Below are positions 9,815 to 63,519 of a stretch of DNA of 64,000 nucleotides, piece after piece. The translations under genes and the position numbers were made by a program. How positions within the stretch are numbered: the stretch's first letter is position 1; each line of letters opens with the position of its first letter. Location: positions 20,026,001 through 20,090,000 of the forward strand of contig OX442314.1 in the NCBI GenBank assembly GCA_949358305.1. The letters are read 5' to 3'. The notes under the pieces were generated by a model that saw only the letters and a program-made list of their open reading frames with translations, searched no databases and was not told the DNA's origin. This DNA comes from Strigamia acuminata. Taxonomy: Eukaryota.

Positions 9815-9845
<31 letters not shown>

Positions 9846-19506: not shown

Positions 19507-20903
19507 ATGGTTCAACCGTTATTTAAGTTCGTTGTAATTGTGTTTATCGCAAATTATTTCGTAAGGAATAATCATTCACAAAATATAATTGCGTAATTTC
19601 ATTTATAATCTATTTATATTTCAATGCAGTGCACATCTGAAACTCAAGCTGATCTCCGGAATCAAGGAGGTAAAATTCTCATCAATTATTTCTTACAAAA
19701 CTAAAGCTCGTCTGTTAACACAAACACCTAAAGTTCGCGCCTGGTATTTTGATGCCAAACTCAAACTGCGCATCACATTCTGTGTATGTATTTTACGTGG
19801 CAATTGCTGCACACAAACACTGGCGCAACCAGGGGGGGGGGAGGGTGGCTATGGGGCCATGGTCACCCCAAAGAGATCATAAAAATTTATTAAAAACGTT
19901 TAATGTTTATGGTACAAAATTCAAAAATTTTCCTGGGTTAGGGGGCGTGCTGAAACCAATGCCCCCCTCTGAAATCTGAACATTTTCTAGATCCGCCTCT
20001 GCACACAAAGGAAATAAAACAACAAAGTTTTATGTTAATGAGTTTATTGTTATTTATTTACTTTATATTAGCATTAGTAGACCTAATATTACGCTTAATA
20101 CTGCTAAATAACAACAGGAAATCATCTGCGCTGAATGGAATGCGCAGTATGAATTTGGCATCAAGATATCCAGCACGAACTGTAGGCTTCAAACACTCAT
20201 TTACAGGATCGGAATAAAAAAAAACTTTTTACTCTGTTTTCCTAATATTTTTATACTAACAAGCAAAAAAATAAAAAAGTTGTTTACGAGCATTTTACAC
20301 CTATCTAACATACTTGCAATGCAAAAAAGTTGCACTTCACCTAACATTTTGGGGGATTTTTAAAAGACAAAACTAACAAAATATGTACATTAATTAAAAG
20401 GCAGTAAACAAGAAATAGTTGCGGCACAGAATGTACAGACTGGAGGCAAAGATTCAGCACAAGCAGAACAAACCGGATCAAAGAAGGTGAAACGTGAAAC
20501 CAAAAAAGAAATGAAACAGAAAGAAGAAAAAAAGAAAATTCAAAGTATGGGAGGCGGTTTTAATGATTATCCACCTATGTTTGCTGTCCCTGACGCTGCT
20601 GCAGCAACTACAGTTGACCCCTTAGCTGCCCGAGAACTAAGTGCTCCTCGCAAAGTTAACGCTGATTCACATAAGGTTCGTAAACATGTCTCTGAAGAAA
20701 GTTCATCAGTTAGTGACTCTTCCAGTGAACAACTGTCTTCTGAGGAGAGCTACTTTCGAGAAGACCTTGCCAGATATCTCTATAAAATTCAACTCCTAAA
20801 TAAATATCGCGCAGCATACCAAGCACAAAATCCAAAAATTGAATATTTTTTTGATTTTCATCAAGTAATTGTACCAGAACAACCAGACTATTATTCGAGG
20901 TAA
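19507..20903 (+). CDS. Secreted family member 0 (divergent, lacks the Gly/Asn cassette)
   Basis: Exons 19507-19560 (MVQPLFKFVVIVFIANYF), 19630-19669 and 20401-20899 splice in phase. Ser-rich block; C-terminus EDLARYLY...EYFFDFHQVIVP is homologous to the other copies. A phase-2 donor at 20900 matches the paralogues, so the true end may lie after 20984. Confidence 0.7.
19818..20001. mobile_element. hAT-type MITE in intron 2 of member 0
   Basis: CA...TG ends; 8-bp TSD cacacaaa. Confidence 0.7.
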
Positions 20904-22935
20904 ATAATAATAAACAGAGAATAAACAAATAAAAAAAATCACTCATCTTTTGGAGTGGTTGATAAATAACTAATTTCTCGTCAGTGACTTGTATAATCAT
21001 TTGCCCATGAATCTTCCAAATTTGAGACTCGACAGGAATTTAATTCCTGTCCAGTCTCAAATAGTCACGTGGTTGCACACATTTTCTTTTGATTTCGCAC
21101 GTTTTAATTTAAATTACATTTTATATCTGTAAAATTGAAATGCTTAGGTGACTTCAATATTATTTTATTTTACCGTTCTGTTTTTCTTGCTTCATCGCTT
21201 TTTCGTTTTTCAAAAAATGAAATGACGTCATTGAAAAAAAATTGCATCGCTTTGAAAAGTAGAAGAGGAAGGAAAGCAGCAAAGAGAAAAATAATATTAA
21301 ACTCACCTACTGCCAGCTCTTGACTTACTAATCATCAGATGCGTTCAATGCCTGGTATTATAAAAATCCTGGGTCGTAATTGGAAAATTTACAGTTTTTG
21401 CTTATCAACTAAATAAAAAATTGTAACAAAAGATTAGGCTATCAAATTAAGTCAATTTATGACAGGTAGAATTTTTTAATTTTTTTTACCCTAGCTTTTC
21501 TTCTGAAATGTCTGAATCTGATTCCAGAGAAGAGCCCCGACCTCCTTCCGGCCGCCCCGAGCCTCTGTTAGGTCGTGTAATGTGGTAAACAAATCGTATC
21601 ATTTTACAATTTTGTACACCGTTGAAATAAAACTGCGATATTCCTAGAAAAAAAAATTATAAATTGGCATACTAATTGTCAACTAACTGCCTTGCTCTCA
21701 CGAATTTCTTCCAATTTCTTCAAATGTCAACAAATTTCCATTTCAGGCGAAAACGTGCTGGCCCGGAAGCGCTCTAAACCTGCGCAGAACAAATGCGCAA
21801 TCGACCTGCGCAGAAAGATGCGCATAAGACCGTTGTGGTCAGGTTTAGAGCGCGGCGGCGGTCCGAGTCCGTTTTCGCCCCAAATTGAATTTTTCAAAAG
21901 ATTTTAGAATTTCCTCCAATTTAGAAAATATCAAAAATTACAAATAAACTTTGTCTCTTCTCAATCATTCTACTTTCCAAAAGAACCGTACATAATGGAG
22001 AAGAGGAAATTTTATTACTGGTTTTTAAGAAAATCGGGTCCGTGTGTCATCATTCTGCAAGACAGATTTGTCGTGATGAAAGCATTCGAGCACGTGGTTA
22101 AGTCTGCATTATGTTCCCAAAAAATAAACACTCAAATTTCGACAAATTTAATAAAAAATTATTTTAAAAACATTTAATTCGCAAAATATTTAATCGCAAC
22201 TACGGTAGTTAGTTTTTATAATTGATTCATGTACAATCGTGGACAAAAAAATTGTACTACAGTTGATATTGTATTATGATTATGATTTTACTTTTTGCTA
22301 AATTTTTGTGACACGGAAATGTTACATACAGGCTAGTTTGCTCTCTCTAAGACAACGCGTTGCTTCACTCTTGATGGCTCCTGTACTCCATCACTGAATT
22401 ACCCGATGTCCCAATGCGCGTCCATCATGATGTGCTGTAGTTGCGCACAAAAAATGTATTAATGTCTAGCACTCTTTCTCTCGACTTTAGGAGAAACAGC
22501 GATCTCGAGAGGGAAATTAAAGCACGTTTTGAATACGTTTTTAGTAAAAATAAATTAGGAAATGGTATTAAAACAGGTTAAAAGCACGTTTCGAGTGTGT
22601 TTTGATTGAAACAAATGTATAAAATGGGATTAAACCGGTATAAATACAACGCAGACTCCCAAATTCTAGGAAAACGACGGCAAGCTCAGCGGATGCCAAG
22701 GATCGCCACTGAAGATCGAAAAGAATATTGGTCCCAAAAATGGCCCCTTACAGATTGTCCTCCCATCACTACACACTCCTTATTTCTTAATACGGAATTA
22801 AATTTTTAGTACATGCTTTAATTTTTTAAATTGATTGTAAACGATAGAATCATGTTACCTAAAAAACAAGTCAATTTAAAAAAAATCAATTATTAAATAC
22901 TATCACATGTAAATTGATGTATATCGTAATGCTAT

Positions 22936-23065
22936 ATTCAGGATATGGTATGATACTAATTACTAACGAACACACTATAAACCTCGTACGACTATTATTG
23001 TCCAATAAATGTTGCTAAAAATACTGTGTGTATTCAAGTTTACTATTACGTATTACGGATCTAAA
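22936..23065 (+). promoter_or_regulatory. Conserved core-promoter/5'UTR module of the gene family
   Basis: tattcaggatatggtatg ... cacactataaacc ... gtattcaagtttactattacg recurs before members 1, 2 and 3; variant atcctgtgcaatataaa precedes members 5, 6 and 7. TATA-like boxes at 22976, 26481, 29829, 46154, 51595, 61241. Confidence 0.65.
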
Positions 23066-23186
23066 AAGATTTTTTATGTTAATTGAAATTAATATTCAAC
23101 TTCAAATTACCAAATGATATAGAACAACAGCCCAGTAAATTCTAATTGTTTTACAGCGGTGTTATCAGATGTGGTATTCAGTTGCC

Positions 23187-24310
23187 ATGTTGAAAAACAT
23201 CCCAATTTCAATTTTCTTGGTCGTTTGGATGGTTACACTGACAAAAGTAATTATTGTTACCAAATTTTTTCAATATCTTTTTCAAATTCTTTTTCTTTAC
23301 ATACATTTAATTTTTTTTTACAGAGTCAAGACGAAGTTGACGGAAACGGATTGGGAAAAGGTGAGAAAAACTAAAAAAAATTATTTACATATGATAATTT
23401 ATATTATTCCTTTAAGCCTACGGTGGAACGGCTAGTGATGAAATACAAGCACCCCATCATCGCAAACCCCGTCATGGTAGCCGTCATAGGTCGAAAAATA
23501 GGAGACACCAAGACGAGGGATATGTTATGGCAAACGCAAATGATCAACGCCAACAAGGCGACAGACGAGCCGCACAAGACCAACAAGGCAACAGACGAAC
23601 AGCACAATACGAACGGGCCAACAGACGACGGCAACGCCAGCAAGGGAACAAACAACTGGAAACTTCAGGAGGAGGATTCAATGCAAATATAAACCAAAAT
23701 AATGAATTTTCACCGACTATTGGAAATATGGGAGAGATTGGAAGTATTGGCGGAAGGGCAGCTAGTCAACTGGAGAGTTCGGGAGGAGGCTTCAATGCAA
23801 ATATAAATCAAAATAATAATTTTTCACCTACTTTTGGAAATATTGGGGATATTGGAAGTATTGGCGGAAGAGCTGCTAATCAACTGGAGAGTTCGGGAGG
23901 AGGCTTCAATGCAAATATAAATCAAGATAATAATTTTTCACCTAATTTTGGAAATATGGGAGCAATTGGAAGTATTGGCGGAAGAGCTGCACCAAGAGAT
24001 AGCACGACTTCGAAAATAGAAAGTTATTTAGATAATCTTTCCGAGGATGACATTGCTAAGTTCTTGTATTATGGCATTACAACATTGATAAGACATGCTG
24101 ACCAAAAACACAAAGGTTCAACACAACCACACAAACCTGATTATTTCTTTGATTTCCGTCAAATTTATCTGCCTACCGACCGCAGGTATCACCGTCATAT
24201 TTTCACTGTATAAATGCTGTGATTGAATACAATTTTTTTTCTTCTTTTTACTTTTAAAACTTTTCAGTGATAGTTCTTCATCAGAATCAGATTCCGGCAG
24301 TGATGAGTGA
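23187..24310 (+). CDS. Secreted repeat precursor, member 1 (3 Gly/Asn cassettes)
   Basis: Exons 23187-23246 (MLKNIPISIFLVVWMVTLTK), 23324-23360, 23417-24185 and 24268-24310 (SDSSSSESDSGSDE*); all GT-AG and in phase. Confidence 0.88.
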
Positions 24311-25590: not shown

Positions 25591-25750
25591 AGGTGTATTC
25601 AAAAACTCTAAAACGTATGCAAAACTCGTTTCGTGTTTGTACGTGACGTCATTCCCATTGAATAACATGGGAATGTTATTCAATGGAAATGACGTCACGT
25701 TCAAACACGAAACGAGTTTTGCATACGTTTTAGAGTTTTTGAATGCACCT
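25591..25750. mobile_element. 160-bp hairpin MITE
   Basis: Almost perfect palindrome aggtgtattcaaaaactc...gagtttttgaatgcacct; 3-bp TSD act; ends resemble those of 60029-60831. Confidence 0.85.
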
Positions 25751-25836
25751 ACTGTATTTGAACTACTTTTACTGACCCCATAAAAAACAACATAATTTTT
25801 CACATACGTTAAATTTAAAAATTCATTAAGCTATTA

Positions 25837-26673: not shown

Positions 26674-28100
26674 ATGTGTAAAAAAATACCAATTTCAATT
26701 TTCTTGATCGTTTGGATGGTCTCATTGACACTGGTAATGATAATGATTGACAACAGCATTGTTCAAATTTTTTTTTAAAATTCTTTTCTGTGCTTAAATT
26801 TAATTCCTTTTACAGGTGGGGCAAGCCCACGGTGATGATGGTGAGATAGAGCCACCCCAAGCTCATCAACACCATCATGTGGGGCAAGAAAGCAGTTCCT
26901 CAAGCAGTTCCTCAAGCGAGGAACACCATAATCCAAACGCACAACCACAACACCAACAAGGCAACAGACAACCTCAACACCAACAAGGTAACAGACAACC
27001 TCAACACCAACAAGGCAACAGACAACCTCAACACCAACAAGGCAACAGACAACCTCAACACCAACAAGGCAACAGACACCCGCATGGCCAACGAGGCGGC
27101 AACAAACAATTGGATAGTTCAGGAGGAGGATTCAATGCAAATATAAATCAAAATAATGAATTTTCACCTAATTTTGGAAATATGGGAGCAATTGGAAGTA
27201 TTGGGGGGAGAGCAGCAACGCAAGGTTCTGGATTCAATACAGAAGGCGGTGGTAATATGAAAGGAAGAGCAGCTAGTCAACTGGACAGTTCAGGAGGAGG
27301 CTTCAATGCAAATATAAATCAAGATAATAATTTTTCACCTACTTTTGGAAATATGGGAGCAATTGGAAGTATTGGGGGGAGAGCAGCAACGCAAGGTTCT
27401 GGATTCAATACAGAAGGCGGTGGTAATATGAAAGGAAGAGCAGCTAGTCAACTGGACAGTTCAGGAGGAGGCTTCAATGCAAATATAAATCAAAATAATG
27501 AATTTTCACCTAATTTTGGAAATATGGGAGCAATTGGAAGTATTGGCGGAAGGGCAGCTACTCAACTGGAGAGTTCGGGAGGAGGCTTCAATGCAAATAT
27601 AAATCAAAATAATAATTTTTCACCTACTTTTGGAAATATAGGAGACATTGGAAGTATTGGCGGAAGGGCAGCTAGTCAACTGGAGAGTTCGGGAGGAGGC
27701 TTCAATGCAAATATAAATCAAAATAATAATTTTTCACCTAATTTTGGAAATATGGGAGAAATTGGAAGTATTGGCGGAAGAGCTTTTGATGGGAAAGCTT
27801 CGAAAATAGGAAGTTATTTAGAAAACCTTTCCGAAGATGACATCGCTAAGTTCTTGTATTATGGCATAACATCTTTGGTAAATCATGCTAACTCAAAACA
27901 CAAAGTTTCGAAGCACCCACAAAAACCTGAATACTTTTTTGACTTTCGAAAAATTTATTTGCCTACCGACCGCAGGTATCACTATCATATTTTCACTGTA
28001 TAAATGCTGTGATTGAATTTAATTTTTTTTCTTCTTTTTACTTTTAAAACTTTTCAGTGATAGTTCTTCATCGGAATCAGGTTCCAGCAGTGATGAGTAA
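26674..28100 (+). CDS. Secreted repeat precursor, member 2 (5 long + 2 short cassettes)
   Basis: Exons 26674-26733 (MCKKIPISIFLIVWMVSLTL), 26816-27975 and 28058-28100. Contains a His block, SSSSSSSSSEE and about 5 HQQGNRQPQ repeats. Confidence 0.88.
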
Positions 28101-30024: not shown

Positions 30025-30931
30025 ATGCTTAAAACGATGCAAATTTCAATTTTCTTGTTTGTTTTTATGATCACATTGACAAAAGTAATGAGTAATGATT
30101 GCTACCAAATTTTTTCAATATCTTTCTCAACATTCTTTTTCTTTGCACATTTCTTTTTTACAGAGTCAACAAAACACACCTGATGAACAACAACCTGGTG
30201 TGATAAAAAAACCTCACTTAGATGAGAAAAACTAAAAAAATTGTTTGTCCATTCTAATTTTTAATATTATTTTTAGGCAACGATCAAACGGGTGGTCGCG
30301 AGAGACAACCATTTGGTGTTGGAACCAACAGAAAACCATTTGGTGTTGGAACCAGACAAGAAGGCGACGGACAAGAAGGCGACGGACAAGAAGGCAACGG
30401 ACAAGAAGGCGACAGTCAACCGCAATATCAACAAAACAGCCGACAACCGCAACAAGGACAAAGGCAAAAAGACAACAGAAAACCACGAGGCCAACGAGGC
30501 GGCAACAAACAACTGGATACTACAGGAGGAGGATTTAATGCAAATATAAATCAAGATAATAATTTTTCACCTAATTTTGGAAATATGGGATCTATTGGAA
30601 GTATTGGCGGAAGAGCTCTTGGAGCAAGTGGGAAAGCTTCGAAAATAGGAACTTATTTAGATAACCTTTCCGAAGATGACATTGCGAAGTTCTTGTACTA
30701 CGGCATTAAATATTTAATAAATAATGCTAATCAAAAACACAAAGGTTCGACACAGGCACATAAACCAGAATACTTTTTCGATTTTCGTCAAATTTATATG
30801 CCTACTGACAGCAGGTACGACTATCATGTTTTCACTGTACAAAAATGTTGTAATTGAATTGAAATTTTTAAAAAAACTTTTCGCTTTAATAATTTTTCAA
30901 TAGCTCTTCAAGCGAAAGTTCAGCTGAATAA
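30025..30931 (+). CDS. Secreted repeat precursor, member 3 (1 cassette)
   Basis: Exons 30025-30084, 30164-30197 (assumed alternative donor), 30277-30814 and 30904-30931 (SSSSESSAE*); QEGDG repeats; YFFDF domain. Confidence 0.75.
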
Positions 30932-34254: not shown

Positions 34255-35344
34255 GGCGACCGACTGAAGGAGCACCGGCGGCGAGCGGCGAGCTGACCTC
34301 TTGGACGTGGCCGATGCGGAGACAAATCTCCATGCCTTATAAGATAAAACACAAGGAGGAAAGCAACATGGTGCCCAAGATGGGGAATCTAGAGCACACT
34401 CTAGTGGCAGAAAAAATTAAACAAAAAAAAACTTAATCCTGCACAACACCCTGTCATAAAACAAGAGATGAGCAACAAATAACTGCTTTGTGCAGAGAAG
34501 GTAAATACAGCAAGGAGCCAACTAGTTACTTAAAAATTAAACATTAAAACAAAAACAATTCATTAACAACTTAAATTTCTACAACTACAAATACATTTCT
34601 CAAGTCAGTTTTCCTCGCTGATCTGCAACAAGACACTGAATAAAGGCCATAAACCATTAAATACAGTCTCTTGTGCTAATTCAATCAATGTGTCATGCAT
34701 CCAGCACTATTTAGGCATTCCCGTGCCCTAATGGCGTCCTTCCATTCTCACATTTTCATAAAAATTGATGTATTGCAATGCTATTTTATGAAATATCAAA
34801 AATTGTTTCTAATTTCTTTTTCTCGTATAGATTTCTCAGGAATTTTCTCTAATCACAAAAGTACTAGTCAAATCCATATATCCTCATACTCCTGTGAAAG
34901 TGATAGAAGTAAAATATTTGGATCGACCTCAAATTAAATCTAGTTTTAATCAAATCTTGAAATTTTAAGCAGTTAAATAGATACATCTGAAGAAAGTATA
35001 AACAAAATTTCATGCCAATCGAGCTTGAATTAATAAAAATAGAAGCATATTTCAAAGTAACATTTGATTCATATATCCTCATACCAGCTTGCACATGGTA
35101 CAAATATTTTCATACTCTGTATTTTAATGTAAAAATATTTACATTCACAAAATAGTTTTATGTAAATATGATCTTGCTAGTAAGAATAGCATAAAACCTT
35201 TCAATTATAGATATTTTGTCAGTAAAATGTCTCCAAAAAAGGCTGTTGTGAGCGCTGAAACATGACTGTATTGGACAAGTTGCACATTGACCTGGGTATT
35301 TTCCTTTTAAAACTTATAGTATTCCCTTTAAGAACAGCAGTATG

Positions 35345-42291: not shown

Positions 42292-43392
42292 ATGTTCACA
42301 TACCTCCAAATAGCAATTTTTTCAGTTATTTTGATGGTCACATTGACAAAGGTAATGCGTGTTACCAATTGCTTTTAATATCTGTTTCTATACTGTATAT
42401 ATTTCTTTGCATAAATTTAATTTTTTTTACAGAGTCAATACATACCAGAAAGAAATAAAAAACATCAGCATGACACAACAAAAGCTGTCTTAGATGTTAA
42501 TTTGGATTTAATTGATGAAAAAGGATCGAAAATAGGTTAAAAAAACTAAAAAATTGTTTACCATTCAAAATTATAATATTATTTTAGGCTATGATGGAAC
42601 GGCTGGTGCCGACATAGAACCACCCCAACGTCGTAAACACCATCATAATCACCGTCAAAAGTCCAAAAAAAGTAAGTACTCAGATGAGGAAGATAAGGTT
42701 GCAAAGGGTCAAAATCAATACCAACAAGGCAACAGACAACCGCAAAGCCAACAAGGCAACAGCCAACAAGGCAACAGCCAACAAGGCAACAGCCAACAAG
42801 GCAACAGCCAACCGCAAAGCCAACAAGGCAACAGACAACCACAAAGCCAACAAGGCAACAATCAACCGCAAAGCCAACAAGGCAACAGACAACCTCAAAG
42901 CCAACAAGGCAAAAGACAACCACAAAACCAAAGTGGTAAGAAACAACTGGGAAGTTCAGGAGGAGGATTCAATGCAAATATAAACCAAAATAATAAATTT
43001 TCACCTACATTTGGAAATATGGGAGATATTGGAAGTATTGGCGGAAGAGCTGCAGGAAGAGATGGAACGAGTTCAAAAATAGAAAGATATTTAGCTAACC
43101 TTTCCGAAGATGACATTGCTAAGTTCTTGTATAATGGCATTTCAACATTGATAAGACATGCTGACCAAAAACACAAAGGTTCAACACAACCACACAAACC
43201 TGATTATTTCTTTGATTTCCGTCAAATTTATATCCCTACCGACAGCAGGTATCATACGATGTTTTCATTGTATTAATGTTGTGACTAAATTGAATTTTTT
43301 ACTTCGTTTAACTTTTTTAACTTTTCAGTGATAGTTCTTCATCAGAATCAGATTCCAACAGTGATGAATCTGTGAATGGCGGAATATGGTAA
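42292..43392 (+). CDS. Secreted repeat precursor, member 4 (1 cassette, long QQGN(S/R)QPQS array)
   Basis: Exons 42292-42351 (MFTYLQIAIFSVILMVTLTK), 42433-42535, 42588-43248 and 43329-43392. Confidence 0.85.
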
Positions 43393-43579
43393 ACGGGACG
43401 TAAAGAAGTAGTGCCATAAATTATCATAAAATTCCATTTGTTCCCTTGATTTTGCATATGTAACCCCTTAAAAATTAAAATAAACTTGTTCTCAACCTAA
43501 AAAGACATGGTTTATTTCCATCAAACCTAAAAACCTACAAAATAGTAATTATAAGGTTTTCCAATATAAATAGTATAAA

Positions 43580-46310: not shown

Positions 46311-47771
46311 ATGTTTAAAAAGATTCCTACTGCAATTTTCTTGGTCGTTTTTATTGTCACATTGACAAAAGTAATGAGTAATAATACTGCACAATTGTAT
46401 TGAATTTTTTTTAAATTATTTATCTTCGTATAAATTTAATTTACAGAGTCAAAACATAGGTGGTAAAAGTCCTGATGACGACAAAAACGTAAAACCTCGA
46501 AGAGGAGGGGAAGGCTTTGACTCCACCATACAAGCGCGTGGGCAAAGTAAGTAAAACTTAAAAATTGTTAACCAATTTCTGCCAATTCTAAAATATTTCA
46601 AACCGCTTTGACATCACTGTATTTGGACGAAGTAAATAAAACTTATTTTTTTGCCAATTCTAATTTAAAATAATATTTTAGGCCAAGAAAAACGTCAACA
46701 TCGACATCACCCACACCATCATGATAATCATCATCACTCCAAAAAAAGAAATTATCCTGACAGAGTGGACGTTCAAAATCAACAAGAAAAAGACAGTAAA
46801 CAACTTGAAAGTACAGCGGGGGGTTTCAGTGCAAACATAAATCAAACCAATAATTTCTCACCCACTTTTGGGAATATAGGAGATATTGGAAGTATTGGTG
46901 GAAGAGAAATGTCGTCACAACTGATAATTTCAAGAAATGGATCGAGTATAGATTTAACTCAACGTAATACATTCTCACGCACGTTTGGAAATATTGCAGC
47001 GGTTGGAAATATTGGTCTCGGTGCGAAAGAAGTCAACAACACACAACTGCAAAGTTCAAATGGAGGGTCCAATACAAATATAAATCAAAACAATGTATTT
47101 TCACCCACGTTTGGGAATATCGGAAACATTGGAAACATTGGAAGTATTGGTCCTGTGGAGAAAGAAGTCAAGAAGAAATTGTAAAGTTCAGGAGGAGGAT
47201 TCAATACAAATATAAATCAAAATAATTTTTTTTACACAAGTTTGGAAATATTTGAGATATTGAAAGTATTGGTATCGGTGCGCGAGAAGTCAACAGACAA
47301 TTGGAAAGTTCAGGGGATGATTCAATACAATTTTAAATCAAAATATTGAATTTTCACCTAGCTTTGGAAATGTTGGCGATATTGGGAGTATGGGTGGGAG
47401 CAGGGGCGGATCTAGCTTTTCGGGGCCCCTTTATCACAATTTTTAATACCTTGCCTTGTTTCTTGGGCCCCCCCTAAAATTTGGGGGCCTTGGGCTCAAG
47501 CCCCATTAGCCCTATGCTAAATCCGCCGCTGGGTGGGAGACAGATGAACGGACGCCTGCAAAGTTCAGGATTCAATACTGATGAGTGATGACGTTGATGT
47601 GAGAGAACGTATAATAGGAAAAACGCTGGATTGAAAAACTACGCGATTTATACAAATTATTTCCTGAAATCTGAATTGAAATTTTTCTTCCCGGAAAATT
47701 CGGCACAGGCACACAAAACTGAATACGGTACTTTTTGATTTTCATAAAATTCACATCCCTAAAGGCCACAG
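46311..47771 (+). pseudogene. Member 5, truncated or pseudogenised
   Basis: Exons 46311-46370, 46447-46546 and 46682 onward are open until TAA at 47182-47184 (position of E in QLESS). After that come frameshifted cassettes, a MITE and an eroded YFFDF domain. Confidence 0.8.
47401..47531. mobile_element. hAT-type MITE inside member 5
   Basis: caggggcggatctag...ctaaatccgccgctg; 8-bp TSD ggtgggag. Confidence 0.85.
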
Positions 47772-50047
47772 GTTGCACTTGTTTATACATATCACTAGCT
47801 GCATTCAAAAATTAAAATACTTGTGTTTTAACAATTTTAGTTTAAGTGTATTTTAAGTTTAAATTTTGAGTGTGAGAATTTTAACTCTATTTTATAAAAT
47901 TGACAACATGTGAAAGCTTTAACATACATCTTTGATCACCTGATATGTAATAAATTCCAAAATGTAGCATATAATACTCTCCAAGTGATTAGAAAGTAGT
48001 ATGCATTGTTGGAATGCTATTATTTTTAGTAAGATTTAAAATTTTTATGCCTTGCTACCGGTAGTAGAAGGGAGGAAGAAATTTTAAAAGAGTATGACCA
48101 ACTGCCACCAGAGGTCATTGACAGCATCAATTCAAAGATGGAGTGATTGGACAAGAAAGAAGAAAGAATTAATAAAGCATCTAAGTAATATTTATTATCA
48201 ATCTTAGTTAGAAAAATACCAAAATTTATGGTTTGAATAAGAATGGTAAAAAATTAAAAAAACAATTTAAAAACAATGTTCACATGTGAGTTACCTATTT
48301 TCATGAAAATTCTTCAGAAATTAAAATTCAAAATTTTTGTATTTATGTTTTAAGAGTGTGTAGCACAAAAATTTAAAATATAACAGGAAGTGATGTGATA
48401 AGTTGTGAAGTGATGTCATATAACTACAGATAAAATTTTAATTTGTGAGTGCTTGAATTTTAACTGAATTTTGCTTCAATTTTCATAAAACTTTGTATAC
48501 AAATGTAATGCATAACTACACTTCAAATTGAAGTAAAATAGAGTTTAGTGAAATTGTATTTTAGTTTGTATTTTAACCAATTTTAGTTTTATAGACAGGA
48601 AATGATGTCATTTTTGTTTTAAAATGGAACTAAAACACAAAATATTTTAATTTTTGAATGCAGCTAGTGTGTCGTTTTTAGCCTGTTATAAAGTTTACAT
48701 ACCTTGGTTTTCGTCCGCTATTCCTGTTTCGTCGTCGTTTACCTGCTTCTTGCACATTAGCAGTTTTCGGGACGCCATTTTGTTGAGGCGCGGCTCTGCT
48801 GCTTTCGAGGCTGACGAGGTTCTGAGAAGTTTTCAGGCCTTATCGCAAGTGGTTGTTATTTATTACTAAGTTATGTTTTTAGCAATCGATTAATTTCTAT
48901 AGTTTGTATCTTTTACTTCTGTTTGTTTTCGTTAGCAATTCCGAAGTGACGGCGGTGCTACCCGCCCATTGGCTGAATGTGTTCGCGTTTATTAGTTTAT
49001 GTTCTTTTGAATATTTGTGACTCGAAATTAATTAAACTCGGTATGATTTAACTGTATTTGCCACTTTGATGATATTTACGACAGTAGTCGTCCTGCTGCT
49101 TACTTTTAAGTTGGTTTTTGACGCTGTTCTGTTAGACTTAAGCTATTGCTTGTTATTTGGAGTTACGGTATTTCTGCTGGACCGTTTTTATTTGCGCTCC
49201 GCATTTGTGCCTTCACACGGCTTTCTTAGTATTTAACACCTGCCTTTTTACAATGGAGTTGTTACCTGTTTAATTCACCTGCTATTCTTCTGCAAGTGGC
49301 AGTTTCACTGTGTGTTTTGTTGAGTTAGTTGTTGTATTTTTTTCGTTGGAATTAAACTATGTTTTTATTGCTCTTAAATTACATGCCAGATTATTTACAA
49401 ACCAACATGTGTGAGTAGAGCAAGCAAGCTCCTCCCTTTGGATCACGGATTACAGGCACATGTGATATTCTGTATTGTGTAGATACGCCACTAGATGGCG
49501 GAATATGTACGGCGACACCTGGTGCACGGTGTTGCCTATTATAACACCTGATTAAAGCGGCACTTTATGTTAGTGCATCACACGACACACTTCGTCCTTC
49601 TTTATTGGAACTCGCTACACGACAGCACACAGAAGGTTTTCCCTCACAATTCAGTAGCGAATCCAAGATATTTAACGTCCTCAGATTTCAAGGCTTTCTT
49701 CGATCAGTCTGCTCTCATTTTCTTTCGCGTCAGTGTCCTTGGTGCTGTAAAGAAACACCGCTGTCATATTATGATTGTTTGAGTTGTCAAAAACTTTGCA
49801 TTTTAGTTCAACTTTAACCCAACAACAAAATTCTATCATAAATTAATTTTTACAGTCTGCAGTCTCATTAAAAGCGATAGAAACCGTAATTCCACAAGAT
49901 CGCTTTAGACAATATGTAACTGTAGGGATAGATTGGATATACGAGCGCTTGAACAAATGGAACGCAATATAAATAGACACAACGCAAGATTAACCACCTA
50001 GGCGGATTCTAACAATAAATATTTGTGACGGAATAAAACCGTAACTG

Positions 50048-51748: not shown

Positions 51749-53645
51749 ATGTTAACAAATATCCCTATTTCAATTTTCTCGGTCATTTTTATTGTCACAT
51801 TGACAAATGTAATGAATGATTATACTACAAAATTTCAATAGATTTTTCAAATTCTGTACCTTTGCATGAATTAATTTTTTTTACAGAGTCAATTCGTACC
51901 AGCCATCCCTTATGTACCGGGTAACAGCCTTGGTGTTGCGAACATGGTTAACCCTGCGCAAAGTAAGTAAAACTTGAATATTGTTTACAATTCTAACTTG
52001 CAATATTATTTTAGTGGGACAAGTGGGACAACTCATACCAGGTAGCAGCCTTGGTGTTGCGAACATGGTTAACCCTGCGCAAAGTAAGTAAAACTTGAAT
52101 ATTGTTTACAATTCTAACTTGCAATATTATTTTAGTGGGACAAGTGGGACAACTCGTACCAGGTAGCAGCCTTGGTGTTGCGAACATGGTTAACCCTGCG
52201 CAAAGTAAGTAAAACTTGAATATTGTTTACAATTCTAACTTGCAATATTATTTTAGTGGGACAAATGGGACAAATGGGACAAATGGGACAACTCGGAAAA
52301 CTCGGAAAACTCGTACCACGTCGTCATCATCATCATCATCACCACTCCTCCGAAGAAGACAATAATCCTGACAATGGTCCGGACGCCCAAAAATCTAACC
52401 AAAGAGGCAACAAACAACTGGAAAGTTCAGGGGGAGGTTTCAATGCAAACATAAATCAAAACAATGCTTTTTCACCTACTTTTGGAAATATGGGAGCAAT
52501 TGGAAGTATTGGGGGGAGAGCAGCGACTGGTTCTGGATTCAATACAGACGGCGGTGGTACTATTAAAGGAAGAGCAGCCAACCAACTGGAAAGTTCAGGT
52601 GGAGGATTCAATACGAATATAAATCAAAATAATCAATTTTCACCTAATTTTGGAAATGTTGGGGATATTGGCGCCATTGGTGGAAGAGCAGCCACGAAAC
52701 AACTGGAAAGTTCAGGTGGAGGATTCAATACAAACATAAATCAAAATAATCAATTTTCACCTAATTTTGGAAATGTTGGGGATATTGGAGCCATTGGTGG
52801 AAGAGCAGCAACGCAAGGTTCTGGATTCAATACAGAAGGCGGTGGTAATATGAAAGGAAGAGCAGCCAAACAACTGGAAAGTACAGGAGGAGGATTCAAT
52901 GCAAATATAAATCAAAATAATGATTTTTCACCCACTTTCGGAAACATTGGAAACATTGGAGCCATTGGTGCAAGATCAGCCACCAAACAACTGGAGAGTA
53001 CAGGAGGAGGATTCAATACAAATATAAATCAAAATAATGAATTTTCACCCAATTTCGGAAACGTTGGAAACATTGGAGCCATTGGTGCAAGAGCAGCAAC
53101 GCAAGGTTCTGGATTCAATACAGAAGGCGCTGGTAAAATTAAAGGAAGAGCAGCCAACCAACTGGAAAGTTCAGGCGGAGGATTCAATACAAATATAAAT
53201 CAAAATAACGAATTTTCGCCAAATTTCGGAAATGTTGGCAATATTGGAGCCATTGGTGGGAGAGCAGCCTCGCGTGGTTCTGGATTCAATACAGACGGTA
53301 TTAAACCGAAAGAACTTGCAGCAGAAAGGGCAGAAACATACTGGGGTGCAAAACTGCGCAATTTATTAGACGGCTTCACTGAACAAGAGATTACCTATTA
53401 TGCAAATTATTTTCTGAAATCTGTCTTGAAGTTTTTCTTCCCTGGAAATTCAGCACAGGCACCGGCACACAACGCTGAATACTTTTTTGATTTCCGTAAA
53501 ATTCATATACCTAAAGGTCACAGGTAATTACTATCATATCCCTCTGATGTCAATATATTGTGATTGAGTTTGAATTGTTGTTTTTTTACTCTACAATTTC
53601 GCTAGGCATTCACAAGAATCAGCTGACAGTAGTGCTAGCGTGTAA
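51749..53645 (+). CDS. Secreted repeat precursor, member 6 (6 long + 3 short cassettes, 2 extra duplicated exons)
   Basis: Exons 51749-51808, 51887-51962, 52015-52083, 52136-52204, 52257-53523 and 53606-53645 (HSQESADSSASV*); His7 tract. Confidence 0.85.
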
Positions 53646-55120
53646 ACATGAATCGCCGAAAGTGTTGGTACGAATAAAATACGAAGTTTCGTAATTTCAT
53701 AATTAAACTATTAGACACCAAAATAAAATTGTAACTTTTTACTGATATATAGACTAACATTATTAATTACAGGAATATAAAAAATAAAACCTTGTTGAAT
53801 TAAAATCTCCAACACACGGTAGTTGAAACTATCGATTCGTTACATTGACTCAGCCTTAAAATTGCCCCGAATTTCCTTCCATCAAAATCTTTGCAATAAT
53901 CTCAATAGAATGGTACGAATGTTGACGCTTGCAATAAACTGTCTAATGCCTAGTTCACACTTAAACCACTTATGTAGAAGTTCTGACTTTTAGAAAGTCT
54001 AATTTCTACAAGTGTGAATGATCTATTTTTAGACTGTTCACACTTGTTCACTAAACTCTATTCCAAAAAGTATTACAAATACTCCCATTGGTTGGTTGGT
54101 TGAGACACTTTAAAAAATCTTCGCACAAGTCTACTGGAATCTGAAAACAGCATCATATTCAAGACACAACTGAACTGTGAATCTCCCAACCAATGGGAGT
54201 ATTTGTAATACTTTTTGGAATAGAGTTTAGTTATGTCATAATAGTAGAAGGGAAGTAGCGAAACTCTCAAGCTCCGCCCCTTTCCAAGTTCATGACATGG
54301 AACTGAAAAAAGTCTTAATGTAAACACACATGATGGAATTAAATTGAAATAAATAAAGATTGACATAAAAAAGAATTCAATTGTTCATAAAAAATAAAAA
54401 GTTAGGCTAAAAGTTGTGTATTTAATTTCTTGTGTGTGTTTGAACTCGAACACCTTGCTGGTTACCAACATCCTGTTGATGTTGGAGTGGTGAAAAGTTG
54501 CGTTTTGGCGCTGCTGTCAAGTTGGGGCTGAATTTTAAAGCCACGCGTGTAAAAAATTAGTTTTTTACCGGTCTTGTGCTTAAAGTTTCCTAATTCGTTT
54601 AGATAATAATTTTATTTTGATTTTATAACACTGTTTGTTGACTATATTTGATCAATTTTGAAATCTTTTAAATATTTAAATAGATTTTTCAGTTTTTTCA
54701 GATTTTTCAGATTTTTCAGATTTTACACCTACTTTTTTAAAGTTTGCCTATATAATTTGATTTGAAGTTGTAATCTTAAGCTGTAAGTAATAAAATAATA
54801 AAAAAAATGTATGAACTAATTTGTGTCATTGTGATTTCTTTACTCTGAGAATTAAATTCAAGAATAAATAAATAAATTAATTTATTAATTAAATAAATAA
54901 AATAAATAAATAAATAAATAAAAATAAATAATAATAATAATAATAATAATAGTAAATAAATAAATAAATAAATTATACCAAATTAAAAAACAGTAGTTTA
55001 AATTAAATTAAGCTTGAATTAGGCCTGAGTAAAAACAAAAACAATAACAATACCGTACATAAGTTACATACTATACTATTAAACTAAATTATTAACGCTG
55101 CTTTTGTTATTTAGGAAACA

Positions 55121-58120
55121 ATGCCTACATGTTTTGTACCGGAATGCAAAACTGGTTATAAATCAGAAAAGAAAAAAAAAGATGAAAAAAAAAAAGATGA
55201 AAACAAAAAAGATGAAAAAGATCATTTTTTCCAGCCTCCGAAAAATCCTGAGCAATTTAAAAAATGGGAAAATGCAATTCCTCGAAAGGATATGAAACTA
55301 CAAAAAACAAGCCGCGTTTGCCATAAGCATTTTATTGAAAATTATTTAGTAAAAGATGATATTTTTATTATTTTAGAGAAGGAAGTGCGAATACCAAGAA
55401 TTAAGTGGAAGTTACAGGATGATGCGATTCCATCTATATTTTTGAATCTTCCTCCCCGTTTCACCAAAAATATCAAAATAAGGAAACCACCTAGGACAAG
55501 AGTTGATGCAGCCAAACTTAGAAGTTCAAGAAGTGAAGACATGGAAACTCAACCCAGTGTGCAGAATGAAGTTACAGAAAATGAACCCAGTATGCAGAAT
55601 GAAGAAGATGTTTTTACAGAAGAGCTAAGGGAACAATTGGTTAACATAGAGAAAAAGATTTCCGAATTGCAAAAAAGAAATGAATTATTGCAACAACGAC
55701 TCAAATGCTCCAACACCTTAAAAGCCAGATATTTAAAGCAAAGGAATGAGTCACAGCAGAAACTCAGAAAAATGGAAACAATTCATAAACAACAATCAAA
55801 ACCTACTAATCCAGTGATACACAACAAATACAGCATGGTGTTAGAGATGATGATGAAGAAGTCAAAATGTTTTCAATCAAAGAAGGGGACAAATGGAATG
55901 AGATACAGTGATCATTTTTTGCTAGAAAGTGCTTTACTTCGTATAAAATCGCCAAAGGGATACATGCACTGCTTGAAACATGAACTTTTACCCCTTCCCT
56001 CACCCAGAAGACTAGAACAATTGGTACGTGGATTGAAATGCAGTTATGGAATCAATGCAAATTCATTACTTGCAATAGCTAACAACTTTGAAGAAAAAGC
56101 TGCTAATCAGCGATGTGGAGTTCTCATCTTTGATGAAGTTAAATTACGTGAGACTGTTGATTTTGACAAAAGCCAAATGAGCTTCAATGGATTTGTGAAT
56201 TTGGGTGAATTTACACCAGAGGAGAAGAAAACACAACTAGCAGATCATGCACTAGTCTTCATGTTTGTGCCATTTCTGGAAAATTGGGTACAGCCTGTTG
56301 CTTGTTTTGCTGCTCAAGGGGCAACTTCAGGAACAATTTTAGCAAAGTTAATTTTAAGTGTGATTCTCGAATTAGAAAATTCTTCTGCCCGAGTAATGGG
56401 GATAACTTGTGATGGTGCTTCAACTAATAAAAAAGCATGGAAAGAATTGGGTATCAACGTAAAGATTAATGCTGTAATAAATAAATTTGCCAATCCAATA
56501 GACAGCAACAGGTACATATATGTGTTTGGTGACTATGTGCATGAGTGGAAATGCATTAGAAATCATTTTGAGAAAGTTAAAAAATGCGTTGTAAGTGTAT
56601 AGTAAACTGATTTAAATGTGACATTTTTAACTTTTGATTTGAATTTATAGTACAATGGGAAAACAGTTGATTACAACTTCTTTGACCATTTATTTGAACG
56701 AGATAATCAAAATGGCGGACTAAAAGTTGTACCAAAGTTGACAGCAAGCCACATCCACCCAAACCAATTTCAAAAAATGAGTGTTAACAGAGCTGTGCAA
56801 GTAAGTATTTACATGTCTCTAATAAATGCTATATAGGATTAGTAATTACTTATTTTTATTTTTATAGCTGTTAAGTGGATCAACAGCTCGTGGGCTTTGT
56901 CACTACAGAAATAGTAGAGATGTAGCATTTGCTGGAAGTGAAAACACAGAAATGTTTGTTGACCACATGAATACCATTTTTGATATTTTAAATGCTAAAT
57001 TGCCGAAGCAAGGTTTAAGAAAAGACACTGAAAAACACCAGGTAAAATTTTTAAAAGCATTGTAATTTGTAATGTATATTTAACCAATTTCTTTCCATAT
57101 TAGATACTGCAGTATTTTGCAAAAGTATTACAAGATCCATCTAATACTTTTGCATCAGAACAAACACTTGAATCACTCCGTGTCACCATAAAAAGTACTC
57201 TTGAATTGTGCAATTACTTGTGGGCCAACGAGTACAAATTTGTGTTGACAGCAAAACTCAATCAAGACCCACTTGAAGTAAATATCTTAAAGATCTCCTG
57301 CTCAGAATTTTTTTTAAAATTATTATTTTATTTTTATTTTTAGAGACATTTTGGTTTAATTAGAGGTCTCAGCTGCAATGACCATCCAACAACAGTAGAC
57401 TTTTTGCAGTTACACCTTCTGCAATCAATCTACACCCCTTTGAAAGGTGTTTTATCGAAAGCAGCAAACTGTGAAACTGCAAATGATAATGTTCTGTCAA
57501 GTTTTACACAAGATTTGAAGAAATTATCGAAACAAGCTACAGAAAACAGTTCACAGTTCCGAGAATCATCACAGAAGACACTGCAGCACAAGATAATTTA
57601 TACTACAAATTTACCAAAACAAATGAGTGATTTTCAGGATGAGACAAAGAGACAAATTGTGTATTATTTGTGTGGATATATTTTAAGACGAATAACCAAC
57701 TATACGGCTTGTGAAAGCTGCATTAAAACATTCATTGCAGATAAGAACTCCCTCCCAACATCAGCAGCTTTCACTTTAAGTAAAGATTATGGCACCTTTT
57801 TAAATTATCCAACTGAAAATTTTTTAAATGTATTTTTACAAGTGGAATATTTTTTACAAAAAGTGTTAGTAGATAATGATGGCAATTTAAATTATTCAAG
57901 CTTAGTTGGCAATGTGTTTGTAGATATTTTAGATTCAATTCCTCAGTTAACTGTGTGTAATATTTTGTGCTGCAGTCAGGAACATATTGAAAGAATTTTG
58001 CCACAACTTTTATTATATTACATGCAAACCCGCTTTTATTTTACAGCTAAAGATATAAGAAAAAATATATGTAATGCTGAAAAAAGCAAAAAAAACAAAA
58101 AAGTAGCTAAGTTAATGTAG
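55121..58120 (+). CDS. Spliced P-element/THAP9-like transposase, about 914 aa
   Basis: Exons 55121-56590, 56651-56800, 56868-57041, 57104-57277 and 57344-58120, all phase 0 and open. THAP domain (CFVPEC..W..VCHKHF..AIPSIF), coiled coil, IFDEV, TCDG, DYVH, QKMSV, FDILN, NQDPLE. Confidence 0.93.
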
Positions 58121-58137
58121 AGAAATTATGAATAATA

Positions 58138-58409
58138 AATGTTAAAATAGAAATAACTGTAAAATTATGTAAATTATTTAAAATGTTAAAATAAAAATAA
58201 CTGTAAAATTATGTAAATTATTTAAAATGTTAAAATAGAAATAACTGTAAAATTATGTAAATTATTTAAAATGTTAAAATAGAAATAACTTTGAATTTAT
58301 GTAAATTATTTAAAATGTTAAAATAGAAATAACTGTAAAATTATGTAAATTATTTAAAATGTTAAAATAGAAATAACTGTAAAATTATGTAAATTATTTA
58401 AAATGTTAA
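58138..58409. repeat. 44-bp minisatellite x6 within the P-like element
   Basis: Unit aatgttaaaatagaaataactgtaaaattatgtaaattatttaa. Confidence 0.9.
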
Positions 58410-60831: not shown

Positions 60832-61388
60832 ATTGTTTTATTAAGGATGTTGATGAATAGCTGATTGCATTCAAGTTTATAATTACACATTTTAACATTT
60901 TAACGAAAATTGCTATCCAAATTACAATTACCCGACGTTTAGAACAAAAGCACATTAAATCAAAGAAAGTTTAATGAGTTATGATCATACTGTATGTGAG
61001 TTTGCCAGGATGGTGAAAAGTCTCTCAGAAACAAAATTTTCTTGATCGTTTTGATTGACAAAGTGCTAATTATTGGCTTTTAAGCAGTAATTTTTTAAGA
61101 ATGTGGTGCGTTATGAAAAAAACTTCGCAACGGGTGCAATCTAATGCAATAACCGCAAAAACTGCAAAAAATCTGTGTCCCCGCCCGTCTAAAATAGAAT
61201 ACTAATATAATTTATTTTCCTATTAATCCATCCTGTGCAATATAAACCTTACATAACATCGTTGTTAAAATGTATTCAAGTTTACTATTGCGGATTTATG
61301 CAAATGGCAATTTTAATTACCACCTGATAAGAAAGTAAAGTCTACTAAATAGAAGTTAGTGTGTTGGCATCAGATGTTAGTTGCCGAA

Positions 61389-63519
61389 ATGTTGAAAAAC
61401 ATTCCTATTTCGATTTTCTCGGTCATTTGTATTGGCACATTGACAAAAGTAATGAACGGTTATATTACAAAAATTCAATGGAATTTTTCAAATTCTGTAC
61501 CTTTGCATGAATTAATTTTTTTTACAGAGTCAATTCGTACCAGTGAAACAAAGCCCTTTAACACCAGTTAGAGGTAGAAGCCTTGGTGATGGAACCATCG
61601 TTACACCTGAGAATAGTAAGTAAAACTTAAATATTGTTTACAATTCTAACTTGGAATATTATTTTAGTCGACGTAGGAATACCCAAACCACGTTCACTAT
61701 CAGAACATCATAGTCATCATCATCATCACCACTCCAAAAAAGACAGCAATCCTGACAATCCTACGGACGCCCAAAATACTAACCAAAAAGTCAACAAACA
61801 ACTGGAAAGTTCAGGGGGAGGTTTCAATGCAAACATAAATCAAAACAATGCCTTTTCACCTACTTTTGGAAATTTGGGATCTATTGGAACCATTGGTGCG
61901 AGGGAATTCACCGATAAAGTGCGAAGTTCAGTAGCAGGATTAAAAACAAATGTAAATGGACTTCCTGATTTTTCAAGCAAGATTGGAAATATTGGAGACA
62001 TTCAAAGTCTTGGTCTCAATGCGAGAGAAATTACTAAACAACTGGAAAGTTCAGGAGGAGGTTTCAATGCAAACATAAATCAAAACAATGCCTTTTCACC
62101 TACTTTTGGAAATTTGGGATCTATTGGAACCATTGGTGCGAGGGAATTCACCGATAAAGTGCGAAGTTCAGTAGCAGGATTGAAAACAAATGTAAATGGA
62201 CTTCCTGATTTTTCAAGCAAGATTGGAAATATTGGAGACATTCAAAGTCTTGGTCTCAATGCGAGAGAAATTACTAAACAACTGGAAAGTTCAGGCGGAG
62301 GATTCAATACAAATATAAATCAAAATAACGAATTTTCGCCAAATTTCGGAAATGTTGGCAATATTGGAGCCATTGGTGGGAGAGCAGCGCATGGTTCTGG
62401 ATTCAATACAGACGGTATTAAACCGAAAGAACTTGCAGCAGAAACATACTGGGTTGCAAAACTGCGCGATTTATTAGACGGCTTCACTGAACAAGAGATT
62501 ACCTATTATGCAAATTATTTCCTGAAATCTGTCTTGAAGTTTTTCTTCCCTGGAAATTCAGCACAGGCACCGGCACACAACGCTGAATACTTTTTTGATT
62601 TCCGTAAAATTCACATACCGAAAGGTCACAGGTAATTACTACCATATACCTCCCATGTCAATATACAGGGTGGTCAGAAAGTCTGGTTCTCAGTAAATAA
62701 TTCCCAAACTGTTCTAGATGTTGATTCAGCAAAATTATTGTAAGGGTAGTATTTCGGGGGAAATCCAATTATGATATCCAATTTGACCTTTGAGGTCATC
62801 TTCAAGGTCATCCATATTGTAACTCGAGAACCGTGACAGATGGAGCAAAAAAGTGAATTAGAAAGTTACAGAGGCATCATCCAATTAGTCTAGAACCGTT
62901 CTTAAAAAAATTATTTCATACTGAAAAGTTTTGAGAAAAAAGGTCTGAAACATTAGTCTACTCAGCATTGTAACTCAGCTTTGTAACCTAAAACTATTGA
63001 GGCAACCAAGCTAATCCTCAATTAGGACACTTTATTTGGTCATACTTTTAAGTGGAAGAGAGGAAACACAAAAGAAAAGAAATAATTTATTTGGGCAATA
63101 CACTTCAACATGATAGTTTTAGGTTACAAAGCTGAGTAGACTAACGTTTCAGAGCTTTTTTCTCAAAACTTTTCAGTATGAAATAATTTTTTTAAGAACG
63201 GTTCTAGACTAATTGGATGATGCTCTATAACTTTCTAATTCACTTTTTTGCTCCATCTGTCACGGTTCTCAAGTTACAATATGGATGACCTTGAAGATGA
63301 CCTCAGAGGTCAAATTGAATGTCATAATTGGATTTCCCCCGACATACTACCTATACAATAATTTTGCTGAATCAACATCTAGAACAGTTTGGAAATTATT
63401 TACTGAGAACCAGACTTTCTGACCACCCTGTATTGTGATTGAGTTTGATTTATTGTTTTTTACTTTACATTTTTGCTAGGCATTCACAAGAATCAGCTGA
63501 CAGTAGTGCTAGCGTGTAA
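61389..63519 (+). CDS. Secreted repeat precursor, member 7 (3 canonical + 2 divergent cassettes)
   Basis: Exons 61389-61448, 61528-61615, 61668-62631 and 63480-63519; the last intron contains a MITE; C-terminus nearly identical to member 6. Confidence 0.85.
62666..63430. mobile_element. Tc1/mariner-type long-TIR MITE
   Basis: ta|cagggtggtcagaaagtctgg ... ccagactttctgaccaccctg|ta with arms over 300 bp; the empty site atgtcaatatattgtgattgag is present in member 6 at about 53547. Confidence 0.92.

What the first reader, a model, noticed from the sequence alone, without database searches (positions are those of the whole stretch)
19507..63519. Tandem array of eight secreted, modular repeat-protein genes of no family I recognise
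Seen: eight same-strand paralogues share the exon scheme: an 18-20-codon signal exon, a short phase-1 exon, a large exon with a phase-2 donor and a small terminal exon. They have His/Ser/Gln-rich N-terminal blocks, 0-6 copies of a 114-nt Gly/Asn cassette and a conserved YFFDF C-terminal domain. There are two subfamilies: members 1-4 (SEDDIAKFLY) and members 5-7 (TEQEITYYANYF in 6 and 7). The ORF track shows only fragments because the signal and tail exons are spliced. Inference: a lineage-specific secretory system under birth-and-death evolution, such as a gland secretion, reproductive, defensive or adhesive product.
Basis: partly seen in the sequence, partly recalled or inferred. Interest (0 to 1): 0.9.

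Follow-up and report, generated by a model that had tools for sequence, protein, structure and literature searches.

The report
Undescribed centipede glue-like repeat protein cluster
Eight related genes lie in a row (one clearly broken) in what is likely a soil centipede; they encode likely secreted proteins built from a conserved 35-residue glycine/asparagine repeat, whose only database relatives are three uncharacterised Strigamia proteins, and which would most likely harden into a glue, silk or coating.

Summary
The array is real: eight same-strand paralogous loci at 19,507-63,519. The exon scheme is less uniform than stated. One gene has three exons, one has six, one has lost a splice donor, one lacks the shared upstream block, and one is a pseudogene.

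The only homologues among 1.84 billion representative proteins are three uncharacterised Strigamia maritima proteins. The neighbouring guanylate cyclase also hits Strigamia (69%), so the source is likely a geophilomorph centipede. There is no Pfam, PDB or Foldseek match, and the motifs are absent from the centipede venom, Lithobius glue and Strigamia neuropeptide sequence files searched.

The repeat is under purifying selection (pooled pN 0.095, pS 0.375). It has invariant Asn and Gly and closes with Gly-Arg in 26 of 30 copies.

Best reading (0.45, inferred): exocrine proteins whose repeats self-assemble as beta structure into glue, silk or a coating. Main rival (0.25): precursors cut into amidated 33-residue peptides. 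No RNA run was listed, so expression, splicing and tissue are untested.

The parts
19507..21132 (+). g0, divergent member with no full repeat; exons 19507-19560, 19630-19669, 20401-20899, last exon uncertain (modelled 20985-21132)
   Evidence: C-domain HMM without g0 scores it 17.5 bits, E 6e-4; no own homologue
23187..24310 (+). g1, 302 aa, 3 repeats; exons 23187-23246, 23324-23360, 23417-24185, 24268-24310
26674..28100 (+). g2, 420 aa, 5 repeats plus 2 short derived cassettes; three exons 26674-26733, 26816-27975, 28058-28100
30025..30931 (+). g3, 1 repeat; second donor at the paralogous position (30222) lost, open only through a cryptic donor at 30198 (219 aa)
42292..43392 (+). g4, 295 aa, 1 repeat, long Gln-rich block; lacks the shared upstream motifs; exons 42292-42351, 42433-42535, 42588-43248, 43329-43392
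46311..47773 (+). g5, pseudogene: stop at 47182-47184, frameshifted repeat and C-domain remnants downstream, ~130-bp inverted-repeat insert near 47401-47531 (by eye)
51749..53645 (+). g6, 526 aa, 6 repeats plus 3 short derived cassettes; six exons 51749-51808, 51887-51962, 52015-52083, 52136-52204, 52257-53523, 53606-53645
61389..63519 (+). g7, 383 aa, 3 repeats plus 2 degenerate ones; exons 61389-61448, 61528-61615, 61668-62631, 63480-63519; last intron 848 nt
62663..63433 (.). palindromic insert (312-bp arms, 95.8% identical) in the last intron of g7
22973..23055 (+). shared upstream block of g1: TATA-like motif plus second motif; equivalents at 26478/26551, 29901 (second motif; TATA-like by alignment), 46151/46197, 51592/51638, 61238/61283
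   Evidence: second motif: 6 hits, 0.32 expected
23653..23985 (+). example of the repeat block: three 35-codon cores (Gln-Leu ... Gly-Arg) at 114-nt spacing in g1
35343..40054 (+). copia LTR retrotransposon with open gag-pol frame and 153-bp LTRs 99.3% identical, inserted between g3 and g4
55115..58120 (+). THAP / P-element-like transposase remnants between g6 and g7
61035..61060 (+). fragment resembling a signal exon upstream of g7 (possible remnant of a lost copy; weak)
   Evidence: E 5e-4 within the window

Best explanation
This is a tandem family of likely secreted proteins, likely from a geophilomorph centipede, whose conserved Gly/Asn repeats are predicted to form beta-hairpins and would stack between molecules into an extracellular material, most likely a gland-made glue or silk. 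Shown: gene structures, repeat conservation, purifying selection, lineage restriction within the databases. Inferred steps: (1) the 18-20-residue hydrophobic leader sends the protein into secretory granules; (2) charged His-, Gln- or Lys/Arg-rich spacers keep it soluble in storage; (3) on release, a change in pH, ions or water, possibly with cutting at the Arg that closes each repeat, lets the alternating Phe/Ala/Ile-Asn strands stack with Asn ladders; (4) the helical YFFDF end domain aligns or sorts the chains, and the Ser/acid tail with S-x-E sites may be phosphorylated and bind cations. Paralogues with 0-6 repeats would tune the blend. The tissue (sternal defensive glands, male web threads, or another gland) is not determined.
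For: Hydropathy peaks at residues 5-11 in all 8 models; T1IS47 has a matching 20-residue leader. At most one Cys per protein; no Pfam family above cut-off for 8 large exons and 3 Strigamia proteins. In 30 repeats, Asn12/14/17/25, Gly7/8/24/27/30, Phe19 and Pro21 are invariant, with hydrophobic residues at 9, 11, 13; cores are 20% Asn and 20% Gly. AlphaFold placed a two-strand hairpin at the same place in every repeat, 1 of 1 and 3 of 3, at low confidence. Selection is purifying: 17 of 19 defined repeat pairs have dN/dS <= 0.29; the C-domain gives 0.08-0.53 in 15 pairs. The layout of repeats between a variable front and a conserved end domain is typical of silk and glue proteins (own knowledge). 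Geophilomorphs release a fast-hardening sternal glue, with bands of 30-67 kDa in Haplophilus (PMC7766067, passage), and males spin silky threads (PMC8056527, passage); the models are 22-52 kDa. Orphan tandem-repeat proteins predicted to form cross-beta fibrils occur in sea-cucumber adhesive (PMC12472103, passage).
Against: No expression, tissue or proteomic data. AlphaFold pLDDT over the repeats is about 26-56, pTM 0.18-0.24, and the hairpins are not modelled with any confidence as a packed fold. The proteins are small for fibre silks and do not match the 12 and 130 kDa Henia glue bands; a 30-67 kDa match is unspecific. No motif match among Lithobius telopodal glue proteins. Gly-Arg at the repeat end is kept despite variable preceding residues, which fits peptide processing at least as well. 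g0 has no full repeat and g3 and g4 only one. Repeat conservation across Strigamia and this species is tighter than many structural low-complexity proteins need (own judgement). The taxon is inferred from one sequenced centipede proteome.
Confidence: 0.45

Rival explanations
1. The proteins are polyprotein precursors. Cleavage at the Arg closing each repeat, with Gly as amide donor and the first Gln cyclised, would release many near-identical ~33-residue peptides acting as signals, seminal-fluid factors or immune effectors.
For: All 30 matched repeats start with Gln; 26 of 30 end Gly-Arg (10 of 10 in Strigamia) although length varies 34-37. Lys/Arg stands directly before the Gln in 16 of 30; only 2 of 30 cores hold Lys/Arg inside. 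Five short derived cassettes also end Lys-Gly-Arg. Strigamia spacers are rich in dibasic sites. Single Gly-Arg ends occur in Strigamia FMRFamide precursors.
Against: 14 of 30 repeats lack a basic residue at -1 (two have none within 7 residues). Four window repeats end Ala-Arg. The second g5 repeat, missed by my pattern and not among the 30, has no Gly-Arg. The window's Gly-Arg sites lack the upstream basic residue that convertases usually need at single-Arg sites (recalled rule). Peptides would be neutral to -3, unlike cationic antimicrobials. Not among the 35 annotated Strigamia neuropeptide entries. A conserved 55-residue end domain is left unexplained.
Confidence: 0.25
2. They are structural proteins of the cuticle, egg coat, spermatophore wall or a haemolymph clot, self-assembling but not an externally deployed glue or silk.
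For: Signal peptide, low complexity, His runs of 6-7 in g6, g7 and two Strigamia proteins, and tandem clustering are also typical of arthropod cuticle and chorion genes (own knowledge).
Against: No chitin-binding or other cuticular Pfam family was hit at E <= 1 or E <= 0.01. No homologue outside Strigamia, whereas core cuticle families are widely shared.
Confidence: 0.17
3. They are components of forcipule venom.
For: Secreted, tandem-arrayed and orphan, as many centipede venom families are (PMC6878950, passages).
Against: Repeat motifs gave 0 hits in a centipede venom-family FASTA that names Strigamia 1,183 times, and 0 in the stored, truncated supplement of the five-order venom study; the 3 YFFDF hits are unrelated LDLA proteins. 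No cysteine scaffold. Selection is purifying.
Confidence: 0.07
4. The array is mostly decaying, unexpressed duplicates.
For: g5 is broken, g3 lost a donor, g4 lost the shared upstream block, and transposons interrupt the array.
Against: Seven loci keep open frames; dN/dS is well below 1; leader, repeat, end domain and Ser/acid tail are conserved with Strigamia at about 41-43% identity.
Confidence: 0.06

Closest known systems
Strigamia maritima T1IS47, T1IS48, T1IL22 (UniProt 'Uncharacterized protein')
   Same: Same family: 20-residue leader (T1IS47), His runs, the repeat, the YFFDF end domain and Ser/acid tail (T1IS47, T1IS48); E 3e-73, 2e-58, 9e-18.
   Different: 41-43% identity; long charged spacers between repeats instead of 3-4-residue linkers; no function or name on record; T1IL22 lacks the end domain.
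Geophilomorph sternal-gland glue (Henia 12 and 130 kDa; Haplophilus 30-67 kDa bands)
   Same: Protein secretion from the likely same order; size range overlaps for Haplophilus (PMC7766067, passage).
   Different: That passage gives band sizes only, and my searches listed no paper with sequences, so identity could not be tested; Henia sizes do not match.
Amyloid-like adhesive proteins (sea-cucumber Cuvierian COOLPs, barnacle cement)
   Same: Orphan secreted proteins with tandem repeats or polar/non-polar alternation, predicted to form beta fibrils (PMC12472103, passages).
   Different: No sequence homology found; marine; fibril formation is supported there and untested here.
Spidroins and fibroins (recalled)
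   Same: Repeats between non-repetitive ends, tandem gene families, homogenised repeats.
   Different: Ten-fold smaller, Asn-rich instead of Ala/Gly-rich, no spidroin or fibroin Pfam or PDB hit.
Multi-copy amidated peptide precursors (neuropeptides; insect immune-peptide precursors, recalled)
   Same: Signal peptide plus repeated units that start with Gln and end Gly-basic.
   Different: No consistent N-terminal cleavage site; units are long and acidic; conserved end domain; no match to annotated Strigamia precursors.
Lithobius telopodal 'Glue1-18' families
   Same: Unclassified secreted proteins of a centipede defensive glue (PMC11170834, passages).
   Different: 0 hits for five repeat motifs in its 7 supplementary files (one file cut when stored).

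Membership tests
T1IS47/T1IS48 family (unnamed) | repeat plus YFFDF end domain detectable by profile | tested here: met
   g0 only weakly
Known centipede venom protein families | sequence present among published venom-family members | tested here: not met
   0 motif hits; exact-motif test only, one file truncated
Known centipede venom protein families | presence in milked venom of this species | not testable with these tools
   no proteome
Lithobius telopodal glue families | shared sequence motifs | tested here: not met
Geophilomorph sternal glue proteins | presence in sternal secretion | not testable with these tools
   no sequences found; only band sizes
Spidroin / fibroin | conserved terminal domains | tested here: not met
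   no Pfam or PDB hit
Functional amyloid | polar/non-polar alternation with conserved Asn/Gln and Gly in repeats | tested here: met
Functional amyloid | cross-beta fibrils, dye binding | not testable with these tools
   needs bench work; AlphaFold low confidence
Amidated peptide precursor | Gly-basic at unit end | tested here: met
   26 of 30
Amidated peptide precursor | cleavage site before each unit | tested here: inconclusive
   Lys/Arg at -1 in 16 of 30
Annotated Strigamia neuropeptides | listed among the precursors of PMC4244043 Fig. S20 | tested here: not met
   0 hits for four motifs
CPR and other Pfam-defined cuticular proteins | chitin-binding or cuticle consensus | tested here: not met
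Secreted protein | cleavable signal peptide | tested here: inconclusive
   hydropathy only; SignalP not available

The most novel reading that the evidence does not exclude
These genes encode the long-sought protein glue or web silk of soil centipedes, and it works in a new way: stored precursors are cut at each repeat's Arg into Asn/Gly building blocks that polymerise into a cross-beta adhesive on release, an independently evolved arthropod biomaterial.
Probability: 0.2. Interest if true: 0.8.

Novelty: new variant of a known kind. Interest (0 to 1): 0.52.

Why it matters
Geophilomorph glue is described as fast-hardening and under study as a medical adhesive, yet the review passage I read gives only gel bands (PMC7766067), and the source of the male web threads is called speculative (PMC8056527). 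This family gives named candidate genes and a 35-residue peptide that can be synthesised, so both questions become directly testable by gland proteomics and a fibril assay. If the peptide-precursor reading holds instead, it is a new multi-copy peptide family in an animal for which no antimicrobial peptide was found in the genome paper (PMC4244043, passage). The locus is also a compact example of gene birth and death by exon loss, exon duplication, repeat exchange and transposon insertion.

Tried and rejected
No RNA holder was listed for 22000-31500; this says nothing on expression. The two listed runs cover introns and intergenic DNA without a break and none of the 15 joints shown (of 83) matches a modelled intron, so they behave as DNA. 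The read layout for the second subfamily (g5-g7) was not obtained, so copy number there is unchecked. No whole genome is held, so paralogues elsewhere could not be counted.

Homodimer prediction of the end domain: no verdict, score 0.02, alignment not used. Foldseek against PDB: 0 matches at E <= 10 with a weak model; the wide structural search never ran. PDB sequence search: 13 hits at E <= 10; the best (7ong, E 5e-5) is six 3-bit matches in a designed propeller and is rejected. Pfam DUF7501 (E 3e-5 for g6, below cut-off, no passing stretch) is rejected as summed repeats. ESM Atlas: no hit by features; structure TM by query <= 0.37. g0 exon alone: none of 156 candidates at E <= 10.

Literature: six exact strings (four motifs less one overlap, three accessions: FSPSFGN, NANINQNN, NANVNQNN, T1IS47, T1IS48, T1IL22) gave 0 papers; topic searches listed no paper on this family. 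Subscription journals are not covered, and of the 57 supplements of PMC4244043 only file 20 and a few early files were read. Earlier scan notes: nothing. A resemblance of KPEYFFDF to Tweedle cuticle motifs (recalled) was not supported by Pfam.
Full report
Observation. Splicing by hand gives seven open models with GT-AG introns, mostly 52-89 nt, and one broken copy. The coordinates 19,507 and 63,519 are the first ATG and last stop. The exon scheme varies: g2 has three exons, g6 six, g3 needs a cryptic donor, and g5 has a stop at 47,182 followed by frameshifted remnants. g0 is a distant member. An end-domain HMM built without it scores it 17.5 bits against at most 8.0 for non-family pieces, and its last exon is uncertain. 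Six genes share an upstream block with a TATA-like motif and a second motif (6 hits, 0.32 expected); g4 and g0 lack it.

Source and distribution. The g2 exon finds three proteins, all uncharacterised Strigamia maritima entries at 41-43% identity. A profile of repeat plus end domain, run on 1.84 billion representatives, returns the same three and nothing else at E <= 0.001. An exon of the neighbouring minus-strand gene has one hit, an S. maritima receptor guanylate cyclase, at 69%. Short introns fit the compact geophilomorph genomes better than other centipedes (PMC9151784, passages). The source is therefore likely a geophilomorph other than S. maritima. This is inference: few myriapod proteomes are in these databases, so the true range may be wider. 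The T1IS47 leader ends at the same Thr-Lys as the signal exons, and T1IS47 and T1IS48 carry the Ser/acid tail. That supports the first and last junctions, though those entries are themselves predictions.

More copies. Contigs of both DNA-like runs join g1-type repeat sequence to g2-type end-domain sequence through letters absent from the window. One such joint is in both runs, at single-copy depth in X1. This suggests further paralogues or a divergent haplotype outside the window. It was seen at 90% likeness and is a hint only.

Anatomy. Each protein has a hydrophobic leader, a variable His-, Gln- or basic-rich front, 0-6 repeats, a 55-residue end domain, and in g1-g7 a 12-24-residue tail that is 44-83% Ser/Asp/Glu with 1-2 S-x-E sites. 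My pattern matched 30 repeats, 20 in the window and 10 in Strigamia. It missed the second g5 repeat, the last T1IS47 repeat, a truncated T1IL22 repeat and the degenerate copies. Among the 30, Gln1, Leu2, Gly7, Gly8, Asn12, Asn14, Asn17, Phe19, Pro21, Gly24, Asn25, Gly27 and Gly30 are invariant. The first half alternates hydrophobic residues with Asn; the second half has Gly every third residue. 26 of 30 end Gly-Arg and 4 end Ala-Arg. AlphaFold draws a hairpin in each repeat and two helices in the end domain, but mean pLDDT is 58 and 41, so this is a weak hint.

Evolution. Between genes the repeats show pooled pN 0.095 and pS 0.375. Of 21 last-repeat pairs, 19 have a defined dN/dS: 17 are <= 0.29, and two are 0.47 and 0.83. 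The end domain gives 0.08-0.53 over 15 pairs. The pairs are not independent. The last repeats of g6 and g7 are identical over 105 nt while most aligned segments of the two genes are 69-89% identical, which points to recent exchange. A copia element with 99.3% identical LTRs, P-element-like remnants and two palindromic inserts sit in the array.

Known families. No Pfam family passes its cut-off. The PDB sequence search, Foldseek and the ESM Atlas give nothing usable. Repeat motifs are absent from a centipede venom-family file that names Strigamia 1,183 times and from the Lithobius glue tables (PMC11170834, passages and supplement searches). They are also absent from the truncated supplement of PMC6878950 (passages and supplement search) and from the Strigamia neuropeptide list (PMC4244043, passages and file 20). 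PMC7864903 (passages) does not mention the family in the passages shown. A full-text search for the motifs and accessions gave 0 papers.

Mechanism. I favour a self-assembling secretion (0.45). The reasons are the Asn/Gly-patterned repeat, the lack of cysteines and of any enzyme or receptor-binding fold, the His runs and S-x-E tails, and the blend of paralogues with different repeat counts. Geophilomorphs make a fast-setting sternal glue and male web threads of unknown composition (PMC7766067 and PMC8056527, passages), and comparable orphan beta-repeat adhesives exist in sea cucumbers (PMC12472103, passages). All steps after gene structure and selection are inferred. The strongest point against is the conserved Gln start and Gly-Arg end, which suit release of amidated peptides (0.25). 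That reading in turn lacks a consistent upstream cleavage site (16 of 30) and does not explain the end domain. The two readings can combine, with cleavage as the trigger for assembly; that is my novel case. Cuticle, egg-coat or clot roles (0.17), venom (0.07) and decay (0.06) are less likely.

Verdict. A real, undescribed, lineage-restricted family under purifying selection, already present in UniProt without a name. Its architecture is of a familiar kind, and its function is unproven but cheaply testable. Interest 0.52.

Noticed in passing
window 7891-18834, minus strand: Multi-exon gene with an EGF-like exon; the exon at 17369-17989 is 69% identical to S. maritima guanylate cyclase T1JDE2 (1836 aa). 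It lies head to head with g0, about 700 bp from its ATG.
   Followed up: partly
window 2675-6610, + strand: Copia retrotransposon with an unbroken 1311-codon gag-pol frame.
   Followed up: partly
window 31597-34255: Second, decayed copia-like element with 191-bp direct repeats 94.8% identical; the 20-bp tandem array at 31471 and 23-bp arrays at 33105 and 6985 are nearby or shared.
   Followed up: no
window 51915-52273: A 121-bp tandem triplication that includes an intron creates two extra in-frame phase-1 exons in g6: exon birth by tandem duplication.
   Followed up: yes
window 52257-52310: Start of the large g6 exon encodes a short Gly-every-third-residue run from a 9-bp repeat, echoing the second half of the main repeat.
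   Followed up: no
window 23036-23145 and equivalents: The shared upstream block may hold a 5' untranslated exon and intron (possible donor after the second motif's start, acceptor about 40 nt before the ATG); by eye only.
   Followed up: no
window 19834-20250 and 24838-26505: Very high-copy repeats (summed contig depth up to about 60,000 against about 90 for single-copy DNA in X1) lie in g0 intron 2 and between g1 and g2.
   Followed up: no
window 41055-41230, + strand: Small exon-like segments with AG/GT ends between the copia element and g4, of unknown origin (by eye).
   Followed up: no
window 58137-58409: AT-rich 44-bp tandem array, 6.2 copies, right after the P-element-like transposase.
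   Followed up: no
P0003 (T1IL22): Its first ~150 residues look unrelated to the family, so the entry may be a fused gene model.
   Followed up: no
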